A DNA stretch of 64,000 nucleotides, taken from the sequence record PZ386948.1; one strand, 5' to 3'. Below, one piece after another: positions 1 through 21,768 of this stretch; the first letter of the stretch is position 1, and each line of letters opens with the position of its first letter. The translations under genes were made by a program, and so were the position numbers. The notes beneath the pieces were generated by a model that was given only the letters and a program-made list of their open reading frames with translations, did no database searches and was not told the origin of the DNA. Origin of the DNA: a phage.

Positions 1-243
1 CATCCACAGTTCAACTAAAAGTTCTTTCTTATTTGTGCTGTTTATTAATTGACCTTTCTTTACATCACGAAATGGTTTGCCAAAAAGCCCAAATGTGATG
101 GCTTCTAACATAGTAGACTTACCACCGCCATTTCGGCCAGTAATAAGAGTTTTTTGAACCTTATCTAATTGAATGTCAACTCCATTTTGACCAACTGACA
201 TTATATTTTTATATTTTACTCTATTAAGTTTAAATGATTTCAT
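1..243 (-). CDS. 46: Recombination nuclease ATPase subunit gp46 (Rad50/SbcC-like), N-terminal 81 codons; gene runs off the window start
   Basis: Minus-strand ATG at 241-243 gives MKSFKLNRVKYKNIMSVGQ...GRNGGGKSTMLEAITFGLFGKPF (P-loop), open to position 1; lies downstream of gene 47 as in T4. Confidence 0.85.
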   Translation of the reverse strand, partial: MKSFKLNRVKYKNIMSVGQNGVDIQLDKVQKTLITGRNGGGKSTMLEAITFGLFGKPFRDVKKGQLINSTNKKELLVELWM

Positions 244-258
244 TTTGTATCCAATTGT

Positions 259-1113
259 TCACAATGAAGAAAATTCTTTAACTAAAGCCTGTAATGAAGC
301 CTCTATTGGATATCCATTCTTAACTAACATTTTCCTAAACATTACATGTTTAGGACGATTATATGATATCCACAATTCATACAATTTATCTTTATTATCC
401 CAATGATAGCCTTTTCGTCGAGATGCTATATGAGCTTTTCTAATCTCCGGATTTTTCCAACTAGCAGCTACTGAATTTGATATAGCTATTTTATATTCAG
501 GTTTTGATAAAGCAGCACGAACAGCCTTTTGGTGTTTAATTTTATTTTCTTCGTTATTAAACCATTCCCTTGAAGCCATTGAAATTTTTTGTTTTGTTTT
601 AAAATTATTTAATCTTTCTTTATTATCTTTCCTATTTTTTGCTACTGAAAAATATTTTAATGCCCTTTCTCTAGCAGCATTTCTATTTTGCGGATTTGAA
701 TAATACTGTTGAAGCCTTTTTGATATTGTGTCACTTACATCTTGTTTTATAAAACTATATTCAGCAGCTATTAAATCAACTTCGGCTAAAGATAAATTTT
801 TATATGTTTTTCCTGACATCATTCTATTTAAAGCATTTAGCATTTTTCCATTTTTACCTTTTGCTAATAAGAAGTGTGCTTTAAAATGATTAAAATGACT
901 TAAATTAACTAAATTCCATGTAGATTTTAAATATTCAGGAAATATTGATTTAGGAAGCACGTGGTGTGCTTCCGTTTTACCTGGAGTTTTAACAGTTGAA
1001 TTCACAGAAATAAAATTAATGTAAGACTTGGCGTCTTCTTCACTCAACGCTAATTTTTCAACTAATTCCTTTATTAAAAATTCATCATTAATGTCAAGTT
1101 TAAAATTCTTCAC
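259..1113 (-). CDS. Freestanding HNH-family homing endonuclease (mob-like)
   Basis: 284-aa ORF with HHVLPKS...NLVNLSHFNHFKAH motif; probable GTG start at 1113 with AAGGAA RBS; paralog of ORF 20989-21768. Confidence 0.8.
   Translation of the reverse strand: MKNFKLDINDEFLIKELVEKLALSEEDAKSYINFISVNSTVKTPGKTEAHHVLPKSIFPEYLKSTWNLVNLSHFNHFKAHFLLAKGKNGKMLNALNRMMSGKTYKNLSLAEVDLIAAEYSFIKQDVSDTISKRLQQYYSNPQNRNAARERALKYFSVAKNRKDNKERLNNFKTKQKISMASREWFNNEENKIKHQKAVRAALSKPEYKIAISNSVAASWKNPEIRKAHIASRRKGYHWDNKDKLYELWISYNRPKHVMFRKMLVKNGYPIEASLQALVKEFSSL
1079..1113. repeat. Imperfect 35-bp direct repeat, copy A (5' end of the HNH gene); copy B at 1282-1316
   Basis: aattcatcattaatgtcaag... vs aattcatcattaatgtcaaa...; first 19 nt identical, 28/35 overall. 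Confidence 0.7.
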
Positions 1114-1316
1114 AAAAGATTCCTTTTAATGTATCTTTTAGACCATTCTATCATATCATCATAATCTAAAAAGTATTCATCAAATTCAGCCATGCAAACA
1201 ACGCCTTGTGCTGCTTTTGATGTGATATAAATTATTCCAACATATCTAGAATCTTCTTCGGTGTAATCAATATTTGCTATGAATTCATCATTAATGTCAA
1301 ATGTCGAAAACTTCAC
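1110..1316 (-). CDS. Hypothetical small protein; N-terminus homologous to the HNH N-terminus
   Basis: ORF with probable GTG start at 1316 plus RBS (VKFSTFDINDEF... vs HNH VKNFKLDINDEF...); track ORF 1110-1373 is probably over-extended. Confidence 0.4.
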   Translation of the reverse strand: MKFSTFDINDEFIANIDYTEEDSRYVGIIYITSKAAQGVVCMAEFDEYFLDYDDMIEWSKRYIKRNLL

Positions 1317-1560
1317 AGTATGCATCCTTAATACAAGATACAGCCATATCTCGTAATGATTTAGGTGTGTCATTATCTAAAATGTTGAAGTTAAAAGATA
1401 CAGCCCAGTCAGTGCAGACTGTAACCTTTTTAATACAATTATCTTCAACCTCTAGCGGTTCAAACCAATATTCAATAATTTCTTTATGACCAATATCATC
1501 TTTTACTTCGCATTCAAAATGCTGACTCATCATAACATTTTTAAATTCATCAAAAGTCAT
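1297..1560 (-). CDS. Hypothetical protein
   Basis: 87-aa ORF; start overlaps the gp47 stop (translational coupling geometry). Confidence 0.45.
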   Translation of the reverse strand: MTFDEFKNVMMSQHFECEVKDDIGHKEIIEYWFEPLEVEDNCIKKVTVCTDWAVSFNFNILDNDTPKSLRDMAVSCIKDAYCEVFDI

Positions 1561-2576
1561 TGTGTTGCCTCTACATATAGCTGATTCGCATATTGAATAA
1601 GTGCTTCACGGTCAGAATCAGTGATGTCTGGAATTGCATTAATGTATTCTTCCATCAACGTCTGAAGAGATTGAACTTCAACTTCTTCACTTTCATCTGA
1701 CTCGACAGAGTTATCAATTTTTGACACAACTCGTAATGAATGCACAACTTTTTCTAGTTCAGATTCGAACTTCGTCAGATTTTTGTCTACCTCAGTTACT
1801 ATAACACGTACTGATAGATTTGTAAAATCTTTATAGTCAATTTTTCCTTTAAATGGATAATGAATTCTACGATGCCAGGTAGTATTGTTTGGAATAAATT
1901 CCATTCGTTCTGTTTCTGTATCAAACATCCAGAACCCACGAGGGTCATTCTCGTCACCTGCAGTTAGTGTCCATGGTGTCCCAATATATCTGACGTTAGC
2001 AGCCTCAGAGATAGTATGGAAGTGACCAGACCACACCTCTTTATAAGTCTTAAGGAAATCAGGTTCAAGACCGTGAGATTTCATTCCTTTATAAAAATAA
2101 AATCCATTCAGCTCCCAGTGACCAACACAAAAAGAAGCAGATGAAGTTTTGATGTGTTCAAGAATTTCACCAGTATTTTCTTCACACATCCAAGGAATTA
2201 AATCAATCAAACATCCGTCAAAATCTACTGTAGTAGGCTTATCATACACTTTAACATTAGGATATTTAGCCAAAAGCTCAGTAGAGGCATTTGGAGTTAA
2301 AGTATTTTTAAAGTGCATATCATGGTTTCCTACAACAGTATGTAGGGTAATACCAGCATCATCAAGCATTTGAACTATTTCACGAGCGAACTCCATAGTT
2401 TTATGTGTGATTGCTTTTCGCACATCAAAAATATCACCATATTGAATCCATACAGTAATTCCATTTTTCTTAGAATATTCTATCGCTTGCTTAATTCCAT
2501 CAATTTGAATACCGCGAATCCACTCATCATCGGCTTTAACGCCTAAATGCCAATCACCTAAATTTAAAATTTTCAT
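1557..2576 (-). CDS. 47: Recombination endonuclease subunit gp47 (Mre11/SbcD-like phosphoesterase)
   Basis: 339 aa; LGDWHLG...GDIFD...GNHD metallophosphoesterase motifs; T4 order a-gt/47/46. Confidence 0.9.
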   Translation of the reverse strand: MKILNLGDWHLGVKADDEWIRGIQIDGIKQAIEYSKKNGITVWIQYGDIFDVRKAITHKTMEFAREIVQMLDDAGITLHTVVGNHDMHFKNTLTPNASTELLAKYPNVKVYDKPTTVDFDGCLIDLIPWMCEENTGEILEHIKTSSASFCVGHWELNGFYFYKGMKSHGLEPDFLKTYKEVWSGHFHTISEAANVRYIGTPWTLTAGDENDPRGFWMFDTETERMEFIPNNTTWHRRIHYPFKGKIDYKDFTNLSVRVIVTEVDKNLTKFESELEKVVHSLRVVSKIDNSVESDESEEVEVQSLQTLMEEYINAIPDITDSDREALIQYANQLYVEATQ

Positions 2577-2737: not shown

Positions 2738-2756
2738 AAGGGCCGAAGCCCTTTAT
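2738..2756. terminator. GC hairpin (aagggc-cgaa-gccctt) at the a-gt 3' end; possible terminator/attenuator
   Basis: Perfect 6-bp stem with CGAA loop followed by T-rich tract; overlaps the a-gt stop codon. Confidence 0.35.
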
Positions 2757-3955
2757 TTTGTAATAATGTCAAACTGTTCTTTAAAGCAGAAGCTTGAATC
2801 TTGATGCTGATACAAAAATTCATATGCTTTTTCTCGCTCACGGTCATAAAGAGCTCGGTCAGATGACAGTTCTTTAATACGTTCAAATGTTGATTCCATA
2901 TCATTTTCATCAAACCAAATGATACCGCTATCATGCGAGGTCAAAGGAGTATTATCAACACGGAATTTTAAATTTTCGCCAGTAGATTTCCAAAATACCG
3001 GAATTGTTCCACATGCACCAAGCTCGAGATGAGTATATTCTAAAGAACGTTGTAGATATTTTTTATCCAACTTACTCAACTGATAACCAAATCCGGATTT
3101 ACTCATACGTTCAAGCATTTCGCTATTTACATAACGGTCAAGAATTTGCGTTGGCAAATTAGGAGCAATTTTAATTTGGTCTACTTGATGAAGACGATAA
3201 TACTCGTATGGAATTCCTTTTTCTTTAATAGGAATGAACGCTGGAGAACGTTCCAGACCTTCCATAATAGTACTTAGTCCTGCAGGTTTAAGATGTTTTT
3301 CGTGAAAATCAAACATCTGATAAAAACCTTTCCATGTAGTCGTACGACCAATCCAACGGTTGATATTCATGTTAATTTCAGAAACATCTTTCCAGTAGGT
3401 TGACCGAACCTTCGCAATATCCATAGGAGGCTGAAAGTTATATACTGTCGGTGCTTCTTCAATATCATCAAACAGAGAAACTGTTTCTGGATACCATTCT
3501 TTCATCAGAACTTTATTAAAATCGCCATTATCAGAATGACTAAAAATAACATCAGCTCGACGAACAGTTTCTTCTAATCCCAAATTTCGGCGCAAAGAAA
3601 GAGAAGAATGGTCATGTTGATAAACTACAACACGAACAGAAGGTTTAATGTTATCAATAATTTTTTTATAGTTATTAATAGTGTCTTCTTCAACCGAAGT
3701 AGCAGGAACTGAATTGATAATTAGAATATCACAATCATTTACCAGCTTAAGTGTTTTATCATATTCTTTTGCCAATAAAACCGGAATTGAAAATGATTTA
3801 TAATCATGCGCGCAATTACGAGTAAATGATTTATCTTTAGCATAAACCAAAGTTACTTCATGACCATTTTTAATAAACCAATCACGTTGCTCAAGAGAAA
3901 ATTTAGTTACACCACAACCTTCAAGACCTCGAGCCATAAAAATACATACTTTCAT
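2753..3955 (-). CDS. a-gt: DNA alpha-glucosyltransferase
   Basis: 400 aa; MKVCIFMARGLEGCGVTKFSLEQRDWF... matches my recollection of T4 AGT; position between 55 and 47. Confidence 0.9.
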   Translation of the reverse strand: MKVCIFMARGLEGCGVTKFSLEQRDWFIKNGHEVTLVYAKDKSFTRNCAHDYKSFSIPVLLAKEYDKTLKLVNDCDILIINSVPATSVEEDTINNYKKIIDNIKPSVRVVVYQHDHSSLSLRRNLGLEETVRRADVIFSHSDNGDFNKVLMKEWYPETVSLFDDIEEAPTVYNFQPPMDIAKVRSTYWKDVSEINMNINRWIGRTTTWKGFYQMFDFHEKHLKPAGLSTIMEGLERSPAFIPIKEKGIPYEYYRLHQVDQIKIAPNLPTQILDRYVNSEMLERMSKSGFGYQLSKLDKKYLQRSLEYTHLELGACGTIPVFWKSTGENLKFRVDNTPLTSHDSGIIWFDENDMESTFERIKELSSDRALYDREREKAYEFLYQHQDSSFCFKEQFDIITK

Positions 3956-4689: not shown

Positions 4690-4908
4690 TTATTTCTCTA
4701 ATATAAAATAAAAATCATCATCTGTTAAATGATACCTGTAATTTAATTCTACACCATTAGATTTAAAAGCGGTATCATACGGATTTTCTGGATCAATATC
4801 AATGTCAAGAGCTAAAACTTCCCTGAGATACATTTTAAGTAAATAGGGAATAGCTTCAACTTCAGGTATTTCTTCCAAGAATCCGGAGAGGTTAATCGTT
4901 AGCCTCAT
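4690..4908 (-). CDS. Hypothetical protein
   Basis: 72-aa ORF immediately downstream of gene 55. Confidence 0.5.
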
Positions 4909-5449
4909 ATAAAAAATCCAAACTAGGAGAATCGTCTACAACACTTTTCTTTTCAGCCCCCGGTGTTCTATAGGTTGATTCTTCGTAATGCGTCATTTTA
5001 TCGTAAATGTCTTGAATAAAAGTTTCATCTACTAACGCAACCATATCGTCGTCACGGCTGTCATAGACATTGTGAACGAAGTAACTATATTTCTTTGCAA
5101 CTTCCTTACGTTCTTTTTTAATACGTTGGACGAATGCATTAAAACAAGCTTGAGTTATATACGCATGTGGGTTTTTATATTTCGTTTCATCAAAATTATG
5201 AAGCCCCTTAATAGAAGCTTCTATACCATCTGCAATCATTTCTTGTTTCCAAGACTGGGTGTATCCTGAAAAGTTGAAACGTTTAGATAAGCCTTCTGCA
5301 ATAAGCATAATGGCTAATCCGATAGTATCATTCTGACGAACTACTTTATTTGGGTCTTTATTATTTGCTAATTCTGTTTTCCAATCAATAATAGCTTGTA
5401 AAAGCTCTTTATTGTTTACGTAATTATATTTAGGCTTAGTTTCTGACAT
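4892..5449 (-). CDS. 55: Late-transcription sigma factor gp55
   Basis: [24 protein letters not shown]...; 185 aa from ATG at 5449 with RBS; track ORF starts 2 codons earlier at GTG. Confidence 0.85.
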
Positions 5450-5527
5450 TTTCACCTCTTAGCTCAATTCATAGATCTATTATATCATAATATTTGAAGA
5501 TCTATCTTAAAGCATAGAGGATATCAG

Positions 5528-19994: not shown

Positions 19995-21005
19995 TCATTT
20001 ATAATAACTTCGGTGGTTTTCAAGATAAACCCTCTCAAGGAAGTCATCCCAAAAACCCATGTCTACTTTTTGCTGCATACCGTTCTTAGAAGCTTCAGTA
20101 GATGCTGCTTCTACTTGATCGACCACATCTTCCAAAAACTCTTGAACCGTTTTAAATGGATGTTTACCCAACTTCACGTCGAGAATAAATGGAGCATCTT
20201 GGAGTGGATAAACCAAGTCACCAGTTTTGTAAATTTCCAATAGTTGGAGTCCACCACGGCAAGCATGACTCATAGCTTTCCAGTCAATACCTTCATTGGC
20301 TTCGGCCTTACGAGCACGTTCACCGTATTCAGCATCTAATTTGTTCAGTGACTGCTTAAGCTCAATAAGAGAAAGCGTTGTCTGATATTTACGACCCAAC
20401 ACTGTGTAAAACGTCTGTGGGCCTGTTTTCTCATGATTATGGAACACCCATTCACAGAATTCGTTTTCTGGAAGACGATGCTTAATATCTTCAACTTTAG
20501 TACGACGCTGCTTAATGGAACCGTCTTCTTGGTAATCAACCCATTGCTCAGGGATTTGATTAACTACTTTCAATACATCGCGTAATGCAGCCAAACGAGA
20601 ACCCTTAACGCCGTATTTAGAAGCTTGCTTACGGACATATCCTAAATAGGATTTCATGTTAGTCGTATAAAAACGAGAACGGTTGTCTTGAATAAACTTC
20701 CACACATCAGGCAAATCAGATTTAACCACTAACTCAGGTGGAGTGTGAAGCATATCTAACGCTACAGTTTCACCATCTGCTGCTAATTTAAAGAAATATT
20801 TAAGACTATACAATTCGTGGTCAATATCATCTTTAGTGTTTTTAGATGATGTGTTGTTAGTGTTTTTACTCATATGCTCTTTAACATTTCCGATAAGAAT
20901 ATCGCGAGCAGGAGGAACAAAAATTTCTTTAAAATCTACATCAGATTCTGGAGTAGAAGTTCCATAAAGATGACTACCAAAATAAGACTTAACTACAGTT
21001 TTCAT
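19995..21005 (-). CDS. Nucleotidyltransferase-fold protein (putative)
   Basis: GSHLYGTSTPESDVDF resembles the G[SG]-x-D-h-[DE] NTase signature; start codon ambiguous (21041/21020/21005); 5' end overlaps the HNH gene. Confidence 0.5.
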   Translation of the reverse strand: MKTVVKSYFGSHLYGTSTPESDVDFKEIFVPPARDILIGNVKEHMSKNTNNTSSKNTKDDIDHELYSLKYFFKLAADGETVALDMLHTPPELVVKSDLPDVWKFIQDNRSRFYTTNMKSYLGYVRKQASKYGVKGSRLAALRDVLKVVNQIPEQWVDYQEDGSIKQRRTKVEDIKHRLPENEFCEWVFHNHEKTGPQTFYTVLGRKYQTTLSLIELKQSLNKLDAEYGERARKAEANEGIDWKAMSHACRGGLQLLEIYKTGDLVYPLQDAPFILDVKLGKHPFKTVQEFLEDVVDQVEAASTEASKNGMQQKVDMGFWDDFLERVYLENHRSYYK

Positions 21006-21768
21006 TATTAGACCTTTCATAATCTTCATTAAATTGTACAATCAATCGATGATAATTAGATTTTGGATATCCTAATTTACTTATATAAGTTCCGAATGAC
21101 CCACGTTTAGGTCTATTTAATTTAATCCATAACTTATAAAGTAAGTCATAGTCTTGCCAATGTTTACCAGTTCTTTGTCTAATTTTAGATGAATTTGATT
21201 GTTTCTTTTTAGTTTCAAAATTATTCAAAGATTTTTTGACTGCAGCAGAGTGTTTTTCTTTAACTCCCGGTCGTTTAAAAGCAGCTTTCACCCCTTTAGA
21301 TATTTTTTCTTTAACTTCCGGTTTGTTTTGTGCTTCTAACTGGGATTCTGAAATTTTAGCCCTTATTTCAGGAAGACTTAATGTTATCGAACGTTTTTCT
21401 CTGTATTCATTAGACTTCCACATTTCTTTCATTGTATTAGAATGTATTTTTGAAAATTTTTCTCTAACTAACTGATATCCTCTTGAAGTTAATTTGAGAT
21501 TTCTTCCTAAAGAATCTTCTCCAAAATTATAAAATGACCACCATGCATAAATTAATCCAGGCGAATTATAATGAATTTTAGCTAAAAGCCAATGGGCTAT
21601 AAAATGCTCTCTAGCTGTTAATAAAACTAGATTATCAGAATCATCATTACCACCAATACAAGATGGAATAATATGATGCTTTTCCGTATAAAAATTTAAT
21701 TTAGATTTATCTAATTTTCTGAGTTTTCCTTTCTTAATTAAATTATTATATACTTTAGTATAATTCAT
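20989..21768 (-). CDS. HNH homing endonuclease, mobD-like by position
   Basis: 259 aa; EKHHIIPSCIGG...NLVLLTAREHFIAHWLLAK; C-terminal similarity to ORF 259-1113. Confidence 0.8.
   Translation of the reverse strand: MNYTKVYNNLIKKGKLRKLDKSKLNFYTEKHHIIPSCIGGNDDSDNLVLLTAREHFIAHWLLAKIHYNSPGLIYAWWSFYNFGEDSLGRNLKLTSRGYQLVREKFSKIHSNTMKEMWKSNEYREKRSITLSLPEIRAKISESQLEAQNKPEVKEKISKGVKAAFKRPGVKEKHSAAVKKSLNNFETKKKQSNSSKIRQRTGKHWQDYDLLYKLWIKLNRPKRGSFGTYISKLGYPKSNYHRLIVQFNEDYERSNNENCS

What the first reader, a model, noticed from the sequence alone, without database searches (positions are those of the whole stretch)
259..1560. Freestanding HNH homing-endonuclease gene inserted between recombination genes 47 and 46, with a duplicated 5' segment
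Genes 47 and 46 are separated here by about 1.3 kb holding an HNH endonuclease ORF (259-1113) and two small ORFs. In T4 these two genes are, to my knowledge, adjacent. The first ~35 bp of the HNH gene (RBS, GTG start and codons for KNFKLDINDEF) recur as an imperfect direct repeat 200 bp upstream (1079-1113 vs 1282-1316, 28/35 identical), where they form the start of a small ORF (VKFSTFDINDEF...). This looks like the footprint of a homing or recombination event that reused a resident translation-initiation region.
Basis: partly seen in the sequence, partly recalled or inferred. Interest (0 to 1): 0.55.

Follow-up and report, generated by a model that had tools for sequence, protein, structure and literature searches.

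The report
Mob-type homing endonuclease beside gene 46
A selfish nuclease gene of a well-known phage family sits inside the first codons of the recombination gene 46, uses that gene's start signal and supplies a spare one; this is an ordinary kind of element, but its junctions and linked sequence changes show where it probably cuts.

Summary
The window is Shigella phage CM8, a T4-like Tequatrovirus. The ORF at 259-1113 (minus strand) is real. It is a free-standing HNH endonuclease gene of the T4 Mob family and is already annotated 'homing endonuclease'. It occurs in about 72 of about 500 Tequatrovirus records, including T6, and is frameshifted in T2 and RB51.

The framing is partly wrong. The two 'small ORFs' are resident T4 genes 46.1 and 46.2, so only 870 bp is extra.

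The insertion lies after codon 6 of gene 46. The HNH gene took over gene 46's RBS, GTG and codons 1-6. Gene 46 received a new ATG and a second copy of those codons.

Codons 7-12 match 46.1. In Mosigvirus and Gelderlandvirus, homologous HNH genes replace 46.1 and keep its start, so this repeat is probably a relic of such an arrangement.

In all three genera, HNH-carrying alleles differ from HNH-less ones 10-20 times more in gene 46 codons 6-22 than in the next 300 nt. That marks the likely target and immunity site. T4 has this tract without the HNH gene.

No activity was tested. It is a new member of a known kind, of moderate interest.

The parts
259..1113 (-). HNH (Mob-type) free-standing homing endonuclease ORF, 284 aa, GTG start
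   Evidence: ORF. phrog_655 'homing endonuclease' E=7.8e-45. 30-36% identity to T4 MobD/MobC. Annotated 'homing endonuclease' in CM8.
862..975 (-). HNH catalytic core, residues 47-84 (EAHHVLPKS...WNLVNLSHFNHFKAH)
   Evidence: H50 H51 P54 N67 L71 H76 A79 H80 are invariant with T4 MobB/C/D. The family profile hits solved HNH domains: Cas8f-HNH E=3e-4, McrA E=8e-3. The model shows strand 47-51, strand 68-72 and helix 73-86.
1096..1125 (-). Captured gene-46 translation-initiation region: RBS AAGGA (1121-1125), GTG (1111-1113), codons 1-6 MKNFKL; the GTG overlaps the 46.1 stop (GTGA)
   Evidence: 100% identical to the T4 and RB14 gene 46 start and its upstream sequence.
1079..1097 (-).
1282..1300 (-). 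Source copy of the 19-nt repeat, within the native start of gene 46.1
   Evidence: Identical in HNH-less T4, RB14 and IMG/VR loci.
1110..1316 (-). Gene 46.1 (DUF5487), a resident gene and not part of the insertion
   Evidence: PF17589 E=2.2e-49. Same gene at the same place in T4.
1297..1560 (-). Gene 46.2 (T4_Y03C family), a resident gene
   Evidence: PF25721 E=2.6e-43. T4 annotation.
1557..2576 (-). Gene 47 (Mre11/SbcD-like nuclease subunit)
   Evidence: phrog_100 E=3.3e-142, PF00149.
226..258 (-). Replacement start for gene 46 carried at the 3' end of the cassette: 15-nt spacer after the HNH stop, new ATG (241-243), second copy of codons 1-6 (MKSFKL)
   Evidence: Absent from T4 and RB14. Present in all HNH+ Tequatrovirus loci examined.
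1..243 (-). 5' end of gene 46 (Rad50/SbcC-like subunit; runs off the window start)
178..228 (-). HNH-linked polymorphic tract, gene 46 codons 6-22 (core codons 12-22 = 178-210): candidate target and immunity site
   Evidence: Differences between HNH+ and HNH- congeners in this 51-nt tract versus the next 300 nt: 14 vs 4 (Tequatrovirus), 12 vs 7 (Mosigvirus), 23 vs 6 (Gelderlandvirus); Fisher p = 7e-10, 6e-7, 9e-17. No HNH+ record carries the RB14-type tract.
585..590 (-). A6 run where RB51/RB68 carry a 1-nt deletion that frameshifts the HNH ORF
   Evidence: P0002, 208 aa.
502..505 (-). A4 run where T2 carries a 2-nt deletion that frameshifts the HNH ORF
   Evidence: P0010, 204 aa.

Best explanation
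This is a free-standing homing endonuclease gene of the T4 Mob family. It has an N-terminal HNH nuclease domain and a MobD-like C-terminal region.

Shown by comparison. The 870-bp cassette lies after codon 6 of gene 46. The HNH ORF is therefore translated from gene 46's original RBS and GTG, still overlapping the 46.1 stop. The cassette's 3' end supplies gene 46 with a new ATG and a second copy of its first six codons, so gene 46 stays intact.

Inferred, about 0.6. Codons 7-12 of the HNH ORF are identical to 46.1 codons 7-12. They are a relic of an older arrangement in which the cassette replaced 46.1 and kept its start, as it still does in Mosigvirus (7 codons kept) and Gelderlandvirus (start codon kept). 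A later in-register, microhomology-mediated join between the similar 46.1 and 46 start regions would have produced the present form with 46.1 restored.

Inferred, about 0.55. By analogy with MobE, the enzyme nicks or cuts HNH-less alleles in the 5' end of gene 46, around codons 12-22. Repair from the HNH+ genome copies in the cassette and the adjacent tract. The HNH-linked tract (K/S12, GTT17, Q19) makes the carrier immune.

Further inferences. T4 itself carries this tract without the HNH gene and is predicted to be immune. RB14-type phages, about 70% of Tequatrovirus records, are predicted to be sensitive. The gene has no late promoter or hairpin of its own and rides on upstream transcription.
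For: Identity of the window: 100% match to phage CM8.

Family. PHROG 'homing endonuclease' E=8e-45. tblastn hits to MobC, MobD and Mob-like genes. T4 MobD 30% identical over 243 aa. HNH residues invariant with T4 MobB/C/D. Profile hits to solved HNH domains. Strand-strand-helix at the motif in a model with pLDDT 82.7.

Insertion point and start capture. Alignments with T4, RB14, T2, T6, RB51, PhiZZ23 and six IMG/VR loci.

Sporadic distribution and decay. 71-72 HNH+ among about 505 records with 46.1. Independent frameshifts in T2 and RB51. All cluster members read start MKNFKLD(I/L)NDEF, which points to a single origin.

Precedent for the 46.1 relic. The pEK20 HNH begins MTKTDYE, the first 7 codons of the 46.1-like gene of HNH-less p000y, and replaces that gene. 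The SEA1 HNH starts at the same ATGA overlap with the gene 47 stop as the 46.1-like gene of STP4-a.

Target and immunity tract. There is 10-20-fold excess divergence confined to codons 6-22 in three genus-level contrasts. In the core, same-status alleles of different genera are closer than opposite-status alleles of one genus. All 72 HNH+ Tequatrovirus records have the linked tract, against about 359 RB14-type and about 71 T4-type HNH-less records.

MobE paradigm. MobE is promoterless and nicks the 5' end of the downstream gene in a polymorphic patch next to a conserved block, with co-conversion of flanking sequence (PMC2790892; PMC2988022).

Expression. No TATAAATA late promoter in 1-2800 and no significant RNA structure at either start.
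Against: No biochemical or genetic test of nuclease activity or biased inheritance exists for this protein, as far as the searched literature shows.

The presumed Tequatrovirus intermediate (46.2-46.1'::HNH-46) was not found in the phage collection, IMG/VR or JGI metagenomes.

The linked tract could be hitch-hiking donor sequence rather than the recognition site. The records are phylogenetically non-independent.

The T4-type tract differs by 2 nt from the HNH+ tract. T4 could still be cleavable if recognition spans the insertion point.

About 70% of relatives remain uninvaded, which sits uneasily with a highly active element.
Confidence: 0.62

Rival explanations
1. It is a stranded or inactive homing endonuclease gene. 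It invaded once and no longer homes. It persists because it now carries gene 46's original initiation region and its translational coupling to 46.1, so most deletions would harm the essential gene 46.
For: All Tequatrovirus copies share one chimeric N-terminus and are 98-100% identical, consistent with a single origin. About 70% of relatives carry the presumed ancestral tract and remain uninvaded. Frameshifted copies persist in T2 and RB51. The review notes that host expression signals embedded in endonuclease genes favour their retention (PMC2988022).
Against: Most copies are intact at 284 aa, and the HNH residues are conserved across three genera at 44% identity. HNH+ phages belong to several different species, with mosaic flanks. 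The same HNH-linked tract pattern recurs in three genera.
Confidence: 0.2
2. The 46.1-like codons 7-12 were copied into the HNH gene after insertion. The route would be ectopic gene conversion or template switching between the two similar GTGAAG start regions 203 bp apart. On this reading they are not a relic of an older cassette that had replaced 46.1.
For: The two starts are in register and already 13/18 similar apart from the copied block. No intermediate arrangement was found.
Against: There is no homology on the 3' side of the copied block to resolve a conversion. Two other genera show the replacement-type arrangement with 46.1 start codons retained at different fusion points. That makes start retention a recurrent property of this cassette.
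Confidence: 0.15
3. It is a domesticated nuclease that works with the gp46/gp47 (Rad50/Mre11-like) complex. That would explain why it is always next to gene 46.
For: The position immediately upstream of gene 46 is the same in three genera.
Against: It is absent from most relatives, including T4, and is a pseudogene in viable T2 and RB51. In two genera it replaces a conserved gene. Its closest relatives sit at other loci such as nrdD/nrdG. Site-specific homing to gene 46 explains the constant position.
Confidence: 0.03
4. The repeat is a chance similarity between two AT-rich gene starts.
For: Both copies begin with GTGAAG and lie in AT-rich DNA.
Against: The core is a 19-nt exact match. It is the only such pair in 64 kb, with 0.17 expected even at up to 3 mismatches. 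It is the top direct repeat in the region.
Confidence: 0.01

Closest known systems
T4 MobE (free-standing HNH homing endonuclease between nrdA and nrdB)
   Same: It has an N-terminal HNH domain and is a promoterless cassette that rides on upstream transcripts. It sits immediately upstream of the gene it targets. Its nick site lies in the 5' end of the downstream gene, in a polymorphic patch beside a conserved block. The carrier is immune through polymorphisms, and flanking sequence is co-converted (PMC2790892). The inferred layout here is the same, with gene 46 in place of nrdB.
   Different: The locus and the C-terminal region differ. Activity is shown for MobE and not for this protein. This gene is fused to the target gene's own first six codons and supplies a replacement start, which was not reported for T4 mobE in the passages read.
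T4 MobD (free-standing HNH gene between nrdC.11 and mobD.1; target unknown)
   Same: It is the best full-length T4 relative: 30% identity over 243 aa, including the C-terminal block ...LY.LWI..NRPK...GYP.... Some records annotate the gene 46-associated homologs as 'MobD-like'. CM8 also carries a true MobD at window 20992-21768.
   Different: It sits at a different locus. This protein is only 30% identical, so it is a separate Mob lineage rather than an orthologue of mobA-E.
mobE in nrdA of Aeromonas phage Aeh1, and mobA in T4 gene 60/39 (gene-splitting insertions)
   Same: A Mob-type gene is inserted inside a host coding region, and the host gene continues to function through new start or stop signals (PMC2988022).
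   Different: Here the 'split' removes only six codons. Those codons are duplicated, so gene 46 remains a single complete ORF. The upstream fragment becomes the N-terminus of the endonuclease itself.
HNH domains of solved structures (Cas8f-HNH fusions, McrA, group II intron maturase En domain)
   Same: The motif E-x-HH-I/V-x-P ... N-L/M-V/I-x-L-S/T ... H ... AH aligns at profile level, with E from 3e-4 to 8e-3.
   Different: The similarity covers only the roughly 60-residue catalytic core. There is none outside it.

Membership tests
HNH (beta-beta-alpha-metal) nuclease superfamily | Conserved His-His (general base), Asn, and His...His on the following helix | tested here: met
   H50 H51 N67 H76 H80 are invariant in alignments with T4 MobB/C/D and database relatives.
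HNH (beta-beta-alpha-metal) nuclease superfamily | Significant sequence-profile similarity to experimentally solved HNH domains | tested here: met
   Family profile A4 against PDB: Cas8f-HNH E=2.9e-4, group II maturase En domain E=4.5e-3, McrA E=8.4e-3. All hits are aligned on the motif.
HNH (beta-beta-alpha-metal) nuclease superfamily | Beta-beta-alpha fold confirmed by structure comparison | tested here: inconclusive
T4 Mob family of free-standing HNH homing endonucleases | N-terminal HNH domain homologous to MobA-E, with a lineage-specific C-terminal region | tested here: met
   tblastn against MobC-like (36%), MobD (30%) and Mob-like genes. T4 MobB/C/D match the window ORF. The C-terminus aligns only with MobD and the gene 46-associated homologs. 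The 35%-identical relatives carry a different, NUMOD1-like C-terminus and sit at nrdD/nrdG.
T4 Mob family of free-standing HNH homing endonucleases | Free-standing: not inside an intron or intein, and placed at a boundary of conserved genes | tested here: met
   It lies between 46.1 and gene 46, at codon 6 of gene 46.
Homing endonuclease gene (functional definition) | Presence/absence polymorphism among otherwise near-identical genomes, with decayed copies | tested here: met
   About 72 of about 505 Tequatrovirus records and 5 of 16 Gelderlandvirus records carry it. T2 and RB51 carry frameshifted copies.
Homing endonuclease gene (functional definition) | Sequence polymorphism near the insertion site that distinguishes carrier alleles from empty alleles (immunity or co-conversion tract) | tested here: met
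   Gene 46 codons 6-22 show 24-45% divergence, against 1-2% in the next 300 nt, in three genera. Linkage is complete in 72 HNH+ records.
Homing endonuclease gene (functional definition) | Site-specific nicking or cleavage of the empty allele | not testable with these tools
   This needs in vivo nick mapping or purified protein.
Homing endonuclease gene (functional definition) | Super-Mendelian inheritance in mixed infections, dependent on the catalytic motif | not testable with these tools
   This needs phage crosses.

The most novel reading that the evidence does not exclude
This Mob lineage travels as a unit: the endonuclease gene, a replacement start for gene 46, and an immunity tract in gene 46 codons 12-22. 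It has entered at least three Tevenvirinae genera. Each time it hijacked the resident start codon of the gene it displaced or split. Reference phage T4 has no such endonuclease here, yet it carries the immunity tract. That tract would be a scar of a past invasion followed by loss through recombination between the duplicated TTTAAACTT codons, or of target conversion without the gene. On this reading the N-terminus of T4 gp46 was shaped by an element T4 no longer has.
Probability: 0.35. Interest if true: 0.45.

Novelty: new member of a known kind. Interest (0 to 1): 0.3.

Why it matters
The analysis adds an uncharacterised sixth Mob-type lineage to the T-even homing endonuclease set. It is present in the classic phages T6 and T2 but not in T4.

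It gives a precise, testable target prediction: gene 46 codons 12-22, with RB14-type alleles sensitive and T4-type alleles immune.

The junctions show concretely how a free-standing endonuclease gene can enter an essential gene without harm. It takes over that gene's ribosome-binding site and start codon and carries a spare start for the host gene. In different genera it keeps 0, 7 or 12 codons of the gene it displaced.

Practically, the element would bias marker inheritance around the gene 46/47 recombination genes in T-even crosses. It also explains a sharp divergence hot spot at the start of gene 46.

It does not change the general picture of homing endonuclease biology.

Tried and rejected
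- Pfam and NCBIfam scans of the protein and its homologs gave no HNH or NUMOD hit above threshold.
- phmmer of the single protein against PDB returned only noise.
- The full-length AlphaFold model has a low-confidence C-terminal half (pLDDT 58.9). Foldseek on it returned noise.
- I looked for the presumed intermediate arrangement (46.1 codons 1-12 fused to the HNH body with 46.1 otherwise deleted). A chimeric BLAST query found none in the phage collection. An exact degenerate pattern found none in IMG/VR or JGI metagenomes. IMG/VR also lacks the CM8-type junction and holds only 7 loci with 46.1, so that negative is weak.
- A chimeric BLAST query for an HNH+ allele carrying the RB14-type tract found none.
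- There is no exact T4 late promoter TATAAATA and no convincing MotA-type promoter specific to the HNH gene. The sigma-70 and terminator scan was uninformative.
- RNA folding found no RBS-occluding hairpin at the HNH start or the new gene 46 start; z-scores were -0.5 and +0.8.
- Literature searches found no paper describing this endonuclease.
- A target-site duplication by transposition was considered and rejected. The duplicated 18 nt are the first six codons of gene 46 in two different allelic forms (13/18 identical), not an exact duplication.
Full report
**Identity and gene map**

The first 2.7 kb of the window is 100% identical to Shigella phage CM8 (MK962750), a Tequatrovirus. All genes here are on the minus strand:
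- gp55: 4892-5455
- alpha-glucosyltransferase: 2753-3955
- 47.1: 2573-2713
- gene 47: 1557-2576
- 46.2: 1297-1560 (PF25721, E=2.6e-43)
- 46.1: 1110-1316 (DUF5487, E=2.2e-49)
- the 284-aa ORF: 259-1113
- gene 46: ATG at 243, running off the window start

T4 has 47, 46.2, 46.1 and 46 in the same order, with the 46.1 stop overlapping the gene 46 GTG. Genes 47 and 46 are not adjacent in T4. The extra DNA is 870 bp.

**The repeat**

The segments 1079-1113 and 1282-1316 are 29/35 identical, with a 19-nt exact core TTGACATTAATGATGAATT. This is the longest direct repeat in 1-2700: 45 nt at 78% identity. The 19-mer occurs exactly twice in 64 kb, and only 0.17 matches are expected even with up to 3 mismatches. 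The upstream copy is the native start of 46.1. It is identical in HNH-less T4, RB14 and six IMG/VR loci, so the HNH copy is the derived one.

**Where the insertion really is**

The relevant sequences, aligned against T4:

| Allele | Sequence at the junction | Codons |
|---|---|---|
| T4 gene 46 start | ...AAAAGGAATCTTTT GTGAAGAATTTTAAACTT / AATAGAGTAAAA... | VKNFKL / NRVK |
| CM8, HNH start | same upstream sequence and same 18 nt, then GACATTAATGATGAATT..., then the HNH body | MKNFKL / DINDEF |
| CM8, after the HNH stop | TGAACAATTGGATACAAA ATGAAATCATTTAAACTT / AATAGAGTAAAA... | MKSFKL / NRVK |

The cassette thus lies after codon 6 of gene 46. The endonuclease ORF has taken over gene 46's RBS, GTG, first six codons and its GTGA overlap with 46.1. 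The cassette's 3' end supplies a new ATG and a second, allelic copy of those codons (13/18 identical, 9 nt exact). This duplication, 1096-1113 vs 226-243, is the real boundary feature.

**What the protein is**

- PHROG 655 'homing endonuclease' matches at E=7.8e-45.
- tblastn finds MobC-like (about 36%), MobD (30%) and many 'Mob-like HNH' genes in T4-like phages.
- T4 MobB, MobC and MobD all hit this ORF. CM8 also has a true MobD at 20992-21768.
- Alignment with T4 MobB/C/D leaves H50, H51, P54, N67, L71, H76, A79 and H80 invariant.
- A profile of that alignment hits solved HNH domains on exactly this motif: Cas8f-HNH E=3e-4, group II maturase En domain E=4.5e-3, McrA E=8e-3.
- A model of residues 1-120 (pLDDT 82.7) places the motif on strand 47-51, strand 68-72 and helix 73-86.
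- The C-terminal half is MobD-like. The next-closest relatives, at 35% identity, have a different NUMOD1-like C-terminus and sit between nrdD and nrdG, the mobC position. This fits the modular Mob architecture described in PMC2790892.

**Distribution**

- The full 2.7-kb arrangement is in 72 of 628 matching records.
- The HNH protein is at least 90% identical in 72 records.
- 71 of 505 records that contain 46.1 also have the HNH.
- Carriers include T6, PP01, RB68, PhiZZ23 and a Hafnia phage, which belong to several species.
- T2 has a 2-nt deletion in an A4 run, and RB51/RB68 have a 1-nt deletion in an A6 run. Both frameshift the ORF.
- All 40 cluster members read begin MKNFKLD(I/L)NDEF, so the chimeric N-terminus arose once.

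This is the presence/absence and decay pattern expected of a homing endonuclease gene.

**Origin of the 46.1-like codons**

Homologs at about 44% identity lie immediately upstream of gene 46 in two other genera:
- Mosigvirus: pEK20 and F2 have 46.2-like, HNH, then 46.
- Gelderlandvirus: SEA1 and Melville have 47, HNH, then 46.

HNH-less congeners have a 46.1-like gene in that slot: p000y and S16 and STP4-a.

The pEK20 HNH begins MTKTDYE with ATGACGAAGACTGACTATGAAA. That is identical to the first seven codons of p000y's 46.1-like gene. After that the sequences part. The SEA1 HNH starts at the same ATGA overlap with the gene 47 stop as STP4-a's 46.1-like gene.

This cassette has therefore repeatedly replaced 46.1 while keeping its start, with fusion points at codon 1 and codon 7/8. 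The CM8 form has 46.1 codons 7-12 preceded by gene 46 codons 1-6 and an intact 46.1 upstream. It is most simply explained as such a replacement-type cassette, fused at codon 12, that was later joined in register to the gene 46 start of a 46.1-containing genome. The two start regions share TGTGAAG and TT at the junction. This step is inferred. The intermediate was not found, and the IMG/VR negative is weak.

**Where it probably cuts**

Within Tequatrovirus, CM8, T4 and RB14 are 99-100% identical through 46.2 and 46.1, and again from gene 46 nt 67 onward. RB14-type alleles differ from CM8 and T4 at 14 of 51 positions in codons 6-22. The same pattern holds in the other genera:

| Genus | Allele pair (HNH+ vs HNH-) | Differences, nt 16-66 (51 nt) | Differences, nt 67-366 (300 nt) | Fisher p |
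|---|---|---|---|---|
| Tequatrovirus | CM8 vs RB14 | 14 | 4 | 7e-10 |
| Mosigvirus | pEK20 vs p000y | 12 | 7 | 6e-7 |
| Gelderlandvirus | SEA1 vs STP4-a | 23 | 6 | 9e-17 |

- All HNH+ alleles encode Y(K/S)NIMSVGQ, with GTT at codon 17 and CAA at codon 19.
- HNH-less alleles in four genera encode YQNIMSVGG.P.
- In the core (codons 12-22), alleles of the same status in different genera are closer to each other than opposite-status alleles within one genus. For example, CM8 vs pEK20 is 7 while pEK20 vs p000y is 12, and RB14 vs p000y is 4.
- In the Mosigvirus pair, codons 4-11 are identical and only codons 12-22 differ. That argues for this patch rather than simple contiguous hitch-hiking.
- A chimeric query found no HNH+ record with the RB14-type tract. 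All 72 sit at 92.3% identity to it.
- Among HNH-less Tequatrovirus records, about 359 are RB14-type and about 71 are T4-type.

This mirrors MobE. MobE is a promoterless cassette upstream of nrdB that nicks at nt 122-126 of nrdB, in a polymorphic patch next to a conserved block, with co-conversion of flanks and carrier immunity through polymorphisms (PMC2790892).

I therefore infer that this enzyme nicks or cuts RB14-type gene 46 around codons 12-22 and that the linked tract is the immunity allele. T4 carries that tract, 2 nt different, without the HNH gene. Two routes could produce this, and I cannot separate them: loss by recombination between the duplicated TTTAAACTT, which would regenerate exactly T4's sequence, or conversion of the target without the gene.

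**Expression**

There is no exact late promoter in 1-2800. Neither start has a significant hairpin. The gene appears to depend on upstream transcripts and on gene 46's former initiation region. Many T4 free-standing endonuclease genes are promoterless cassettes (PMC2988022).

**Verdict**

The anatomy was misread. This is an uncharacterised member of the known Mob family, already labelled 'homing endonuclease' in GenBank, with an instructive start-capture junction and a well-defined predicted target. No activity has been shown. No paper in the searched library describes it. Interest is moderate to low.

Noticed in passing
L020 (GenBank OK040907.1 'phage Ac3'), locus about 601-1570; corresponds to window about 150-1113: This RB51-like record is synonymously recoded at almost every codon, from the HNH start (GTG changed to GTT) through at least the first 96 nt of gene 46. 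The changes favour E. coli-preferred codons: GC is 44% against 28%, with 248 substitutions, 168 of them at third positions. 46.1 and 46.2 upstream are unchanged, and RB51's 1-nt frameshift is retained. It looks like synthetic, codon-optimised DNA inside a phage genome record.
   Followed up: partly
L003 (PhiZZ23) 3054-3677; also G28, F26 and G2540-3. The equivalent site in the window is about 2573-2713.: Some HNH+ phages carry a second gene of about 620 bp, annotated 'HNH endonuclease', between gene 47 and a-gt, in place of 47.1. CM8 has 47.1 there instead.
   Followed up: no
window 20992-21768 (minus strand): CM8 has a MobD 99.6% identical to T4's but no mobB or mobC anywhere in the 64-kb window. 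T4 has mobB next to a-gt. The two phages therefore carry different sets of Mob genes.
   Followed up: partly
window 585-590 and 502-505: The two independent inactivations of this gene, in RB51/RB68 and in T2, are deletions in A6 and A4 homopolymer runs. A 2025 bioRxiv preprint (10.1101/2025.10.21.683753) reports frameshift-prone contingency loci in T2 and T4. I did not read it.
   Followed up: no
window 953-973: A 9-bp-stem inverted repeat, GGAAGCACGTGGTGTGCTTCC, lies exactly on the codons for the catalytic EAHHVLP motif. The scan flagged it as terminator-like on the non-coding strand. It may be a by-product of the codons.
   Followed up: no
L017 (phage F2) 4276-4374: In F2, another gene annotated 'homing endonuclease' lies on the opposite strand immediately after gene 46. 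Gene 46 there is flanked by endonuclease genes on both sides.
   Followed up: no
window 2227-2427 and 1627-1727 (gene 47): CM8 gene 47 contains blocks that are only 85-93% identical to T4 and RB14, while T4 and RB14 are 95-99% identical to each other there. This is mosaic exchange unrelated to the HNH boundary.
   Followed up: no
L021 (Salmonella phage S16) 1590-1796: RefSeq annotates the 46.1-like gene of S16 as only 1674-1796. A GTG at 1590, overlapping the gene 47 stop, gives the full 68-aa homolog, as annotated in STP4-a.
   Followed up: partly
window 226-243 vs L015 (p000y) 1801-1815: CM8's replacement gene 46 start, ATGAAATCATTTAAA, is identical to the native gene 46 start of HNH-less Mosigvirus p000y. 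It does not match the start in HNH+ Mosigvirus pEK20, GTGAAAACATTTAAA. The origin of the cassette's 3' flank is unresolved.
   Followed up: partly
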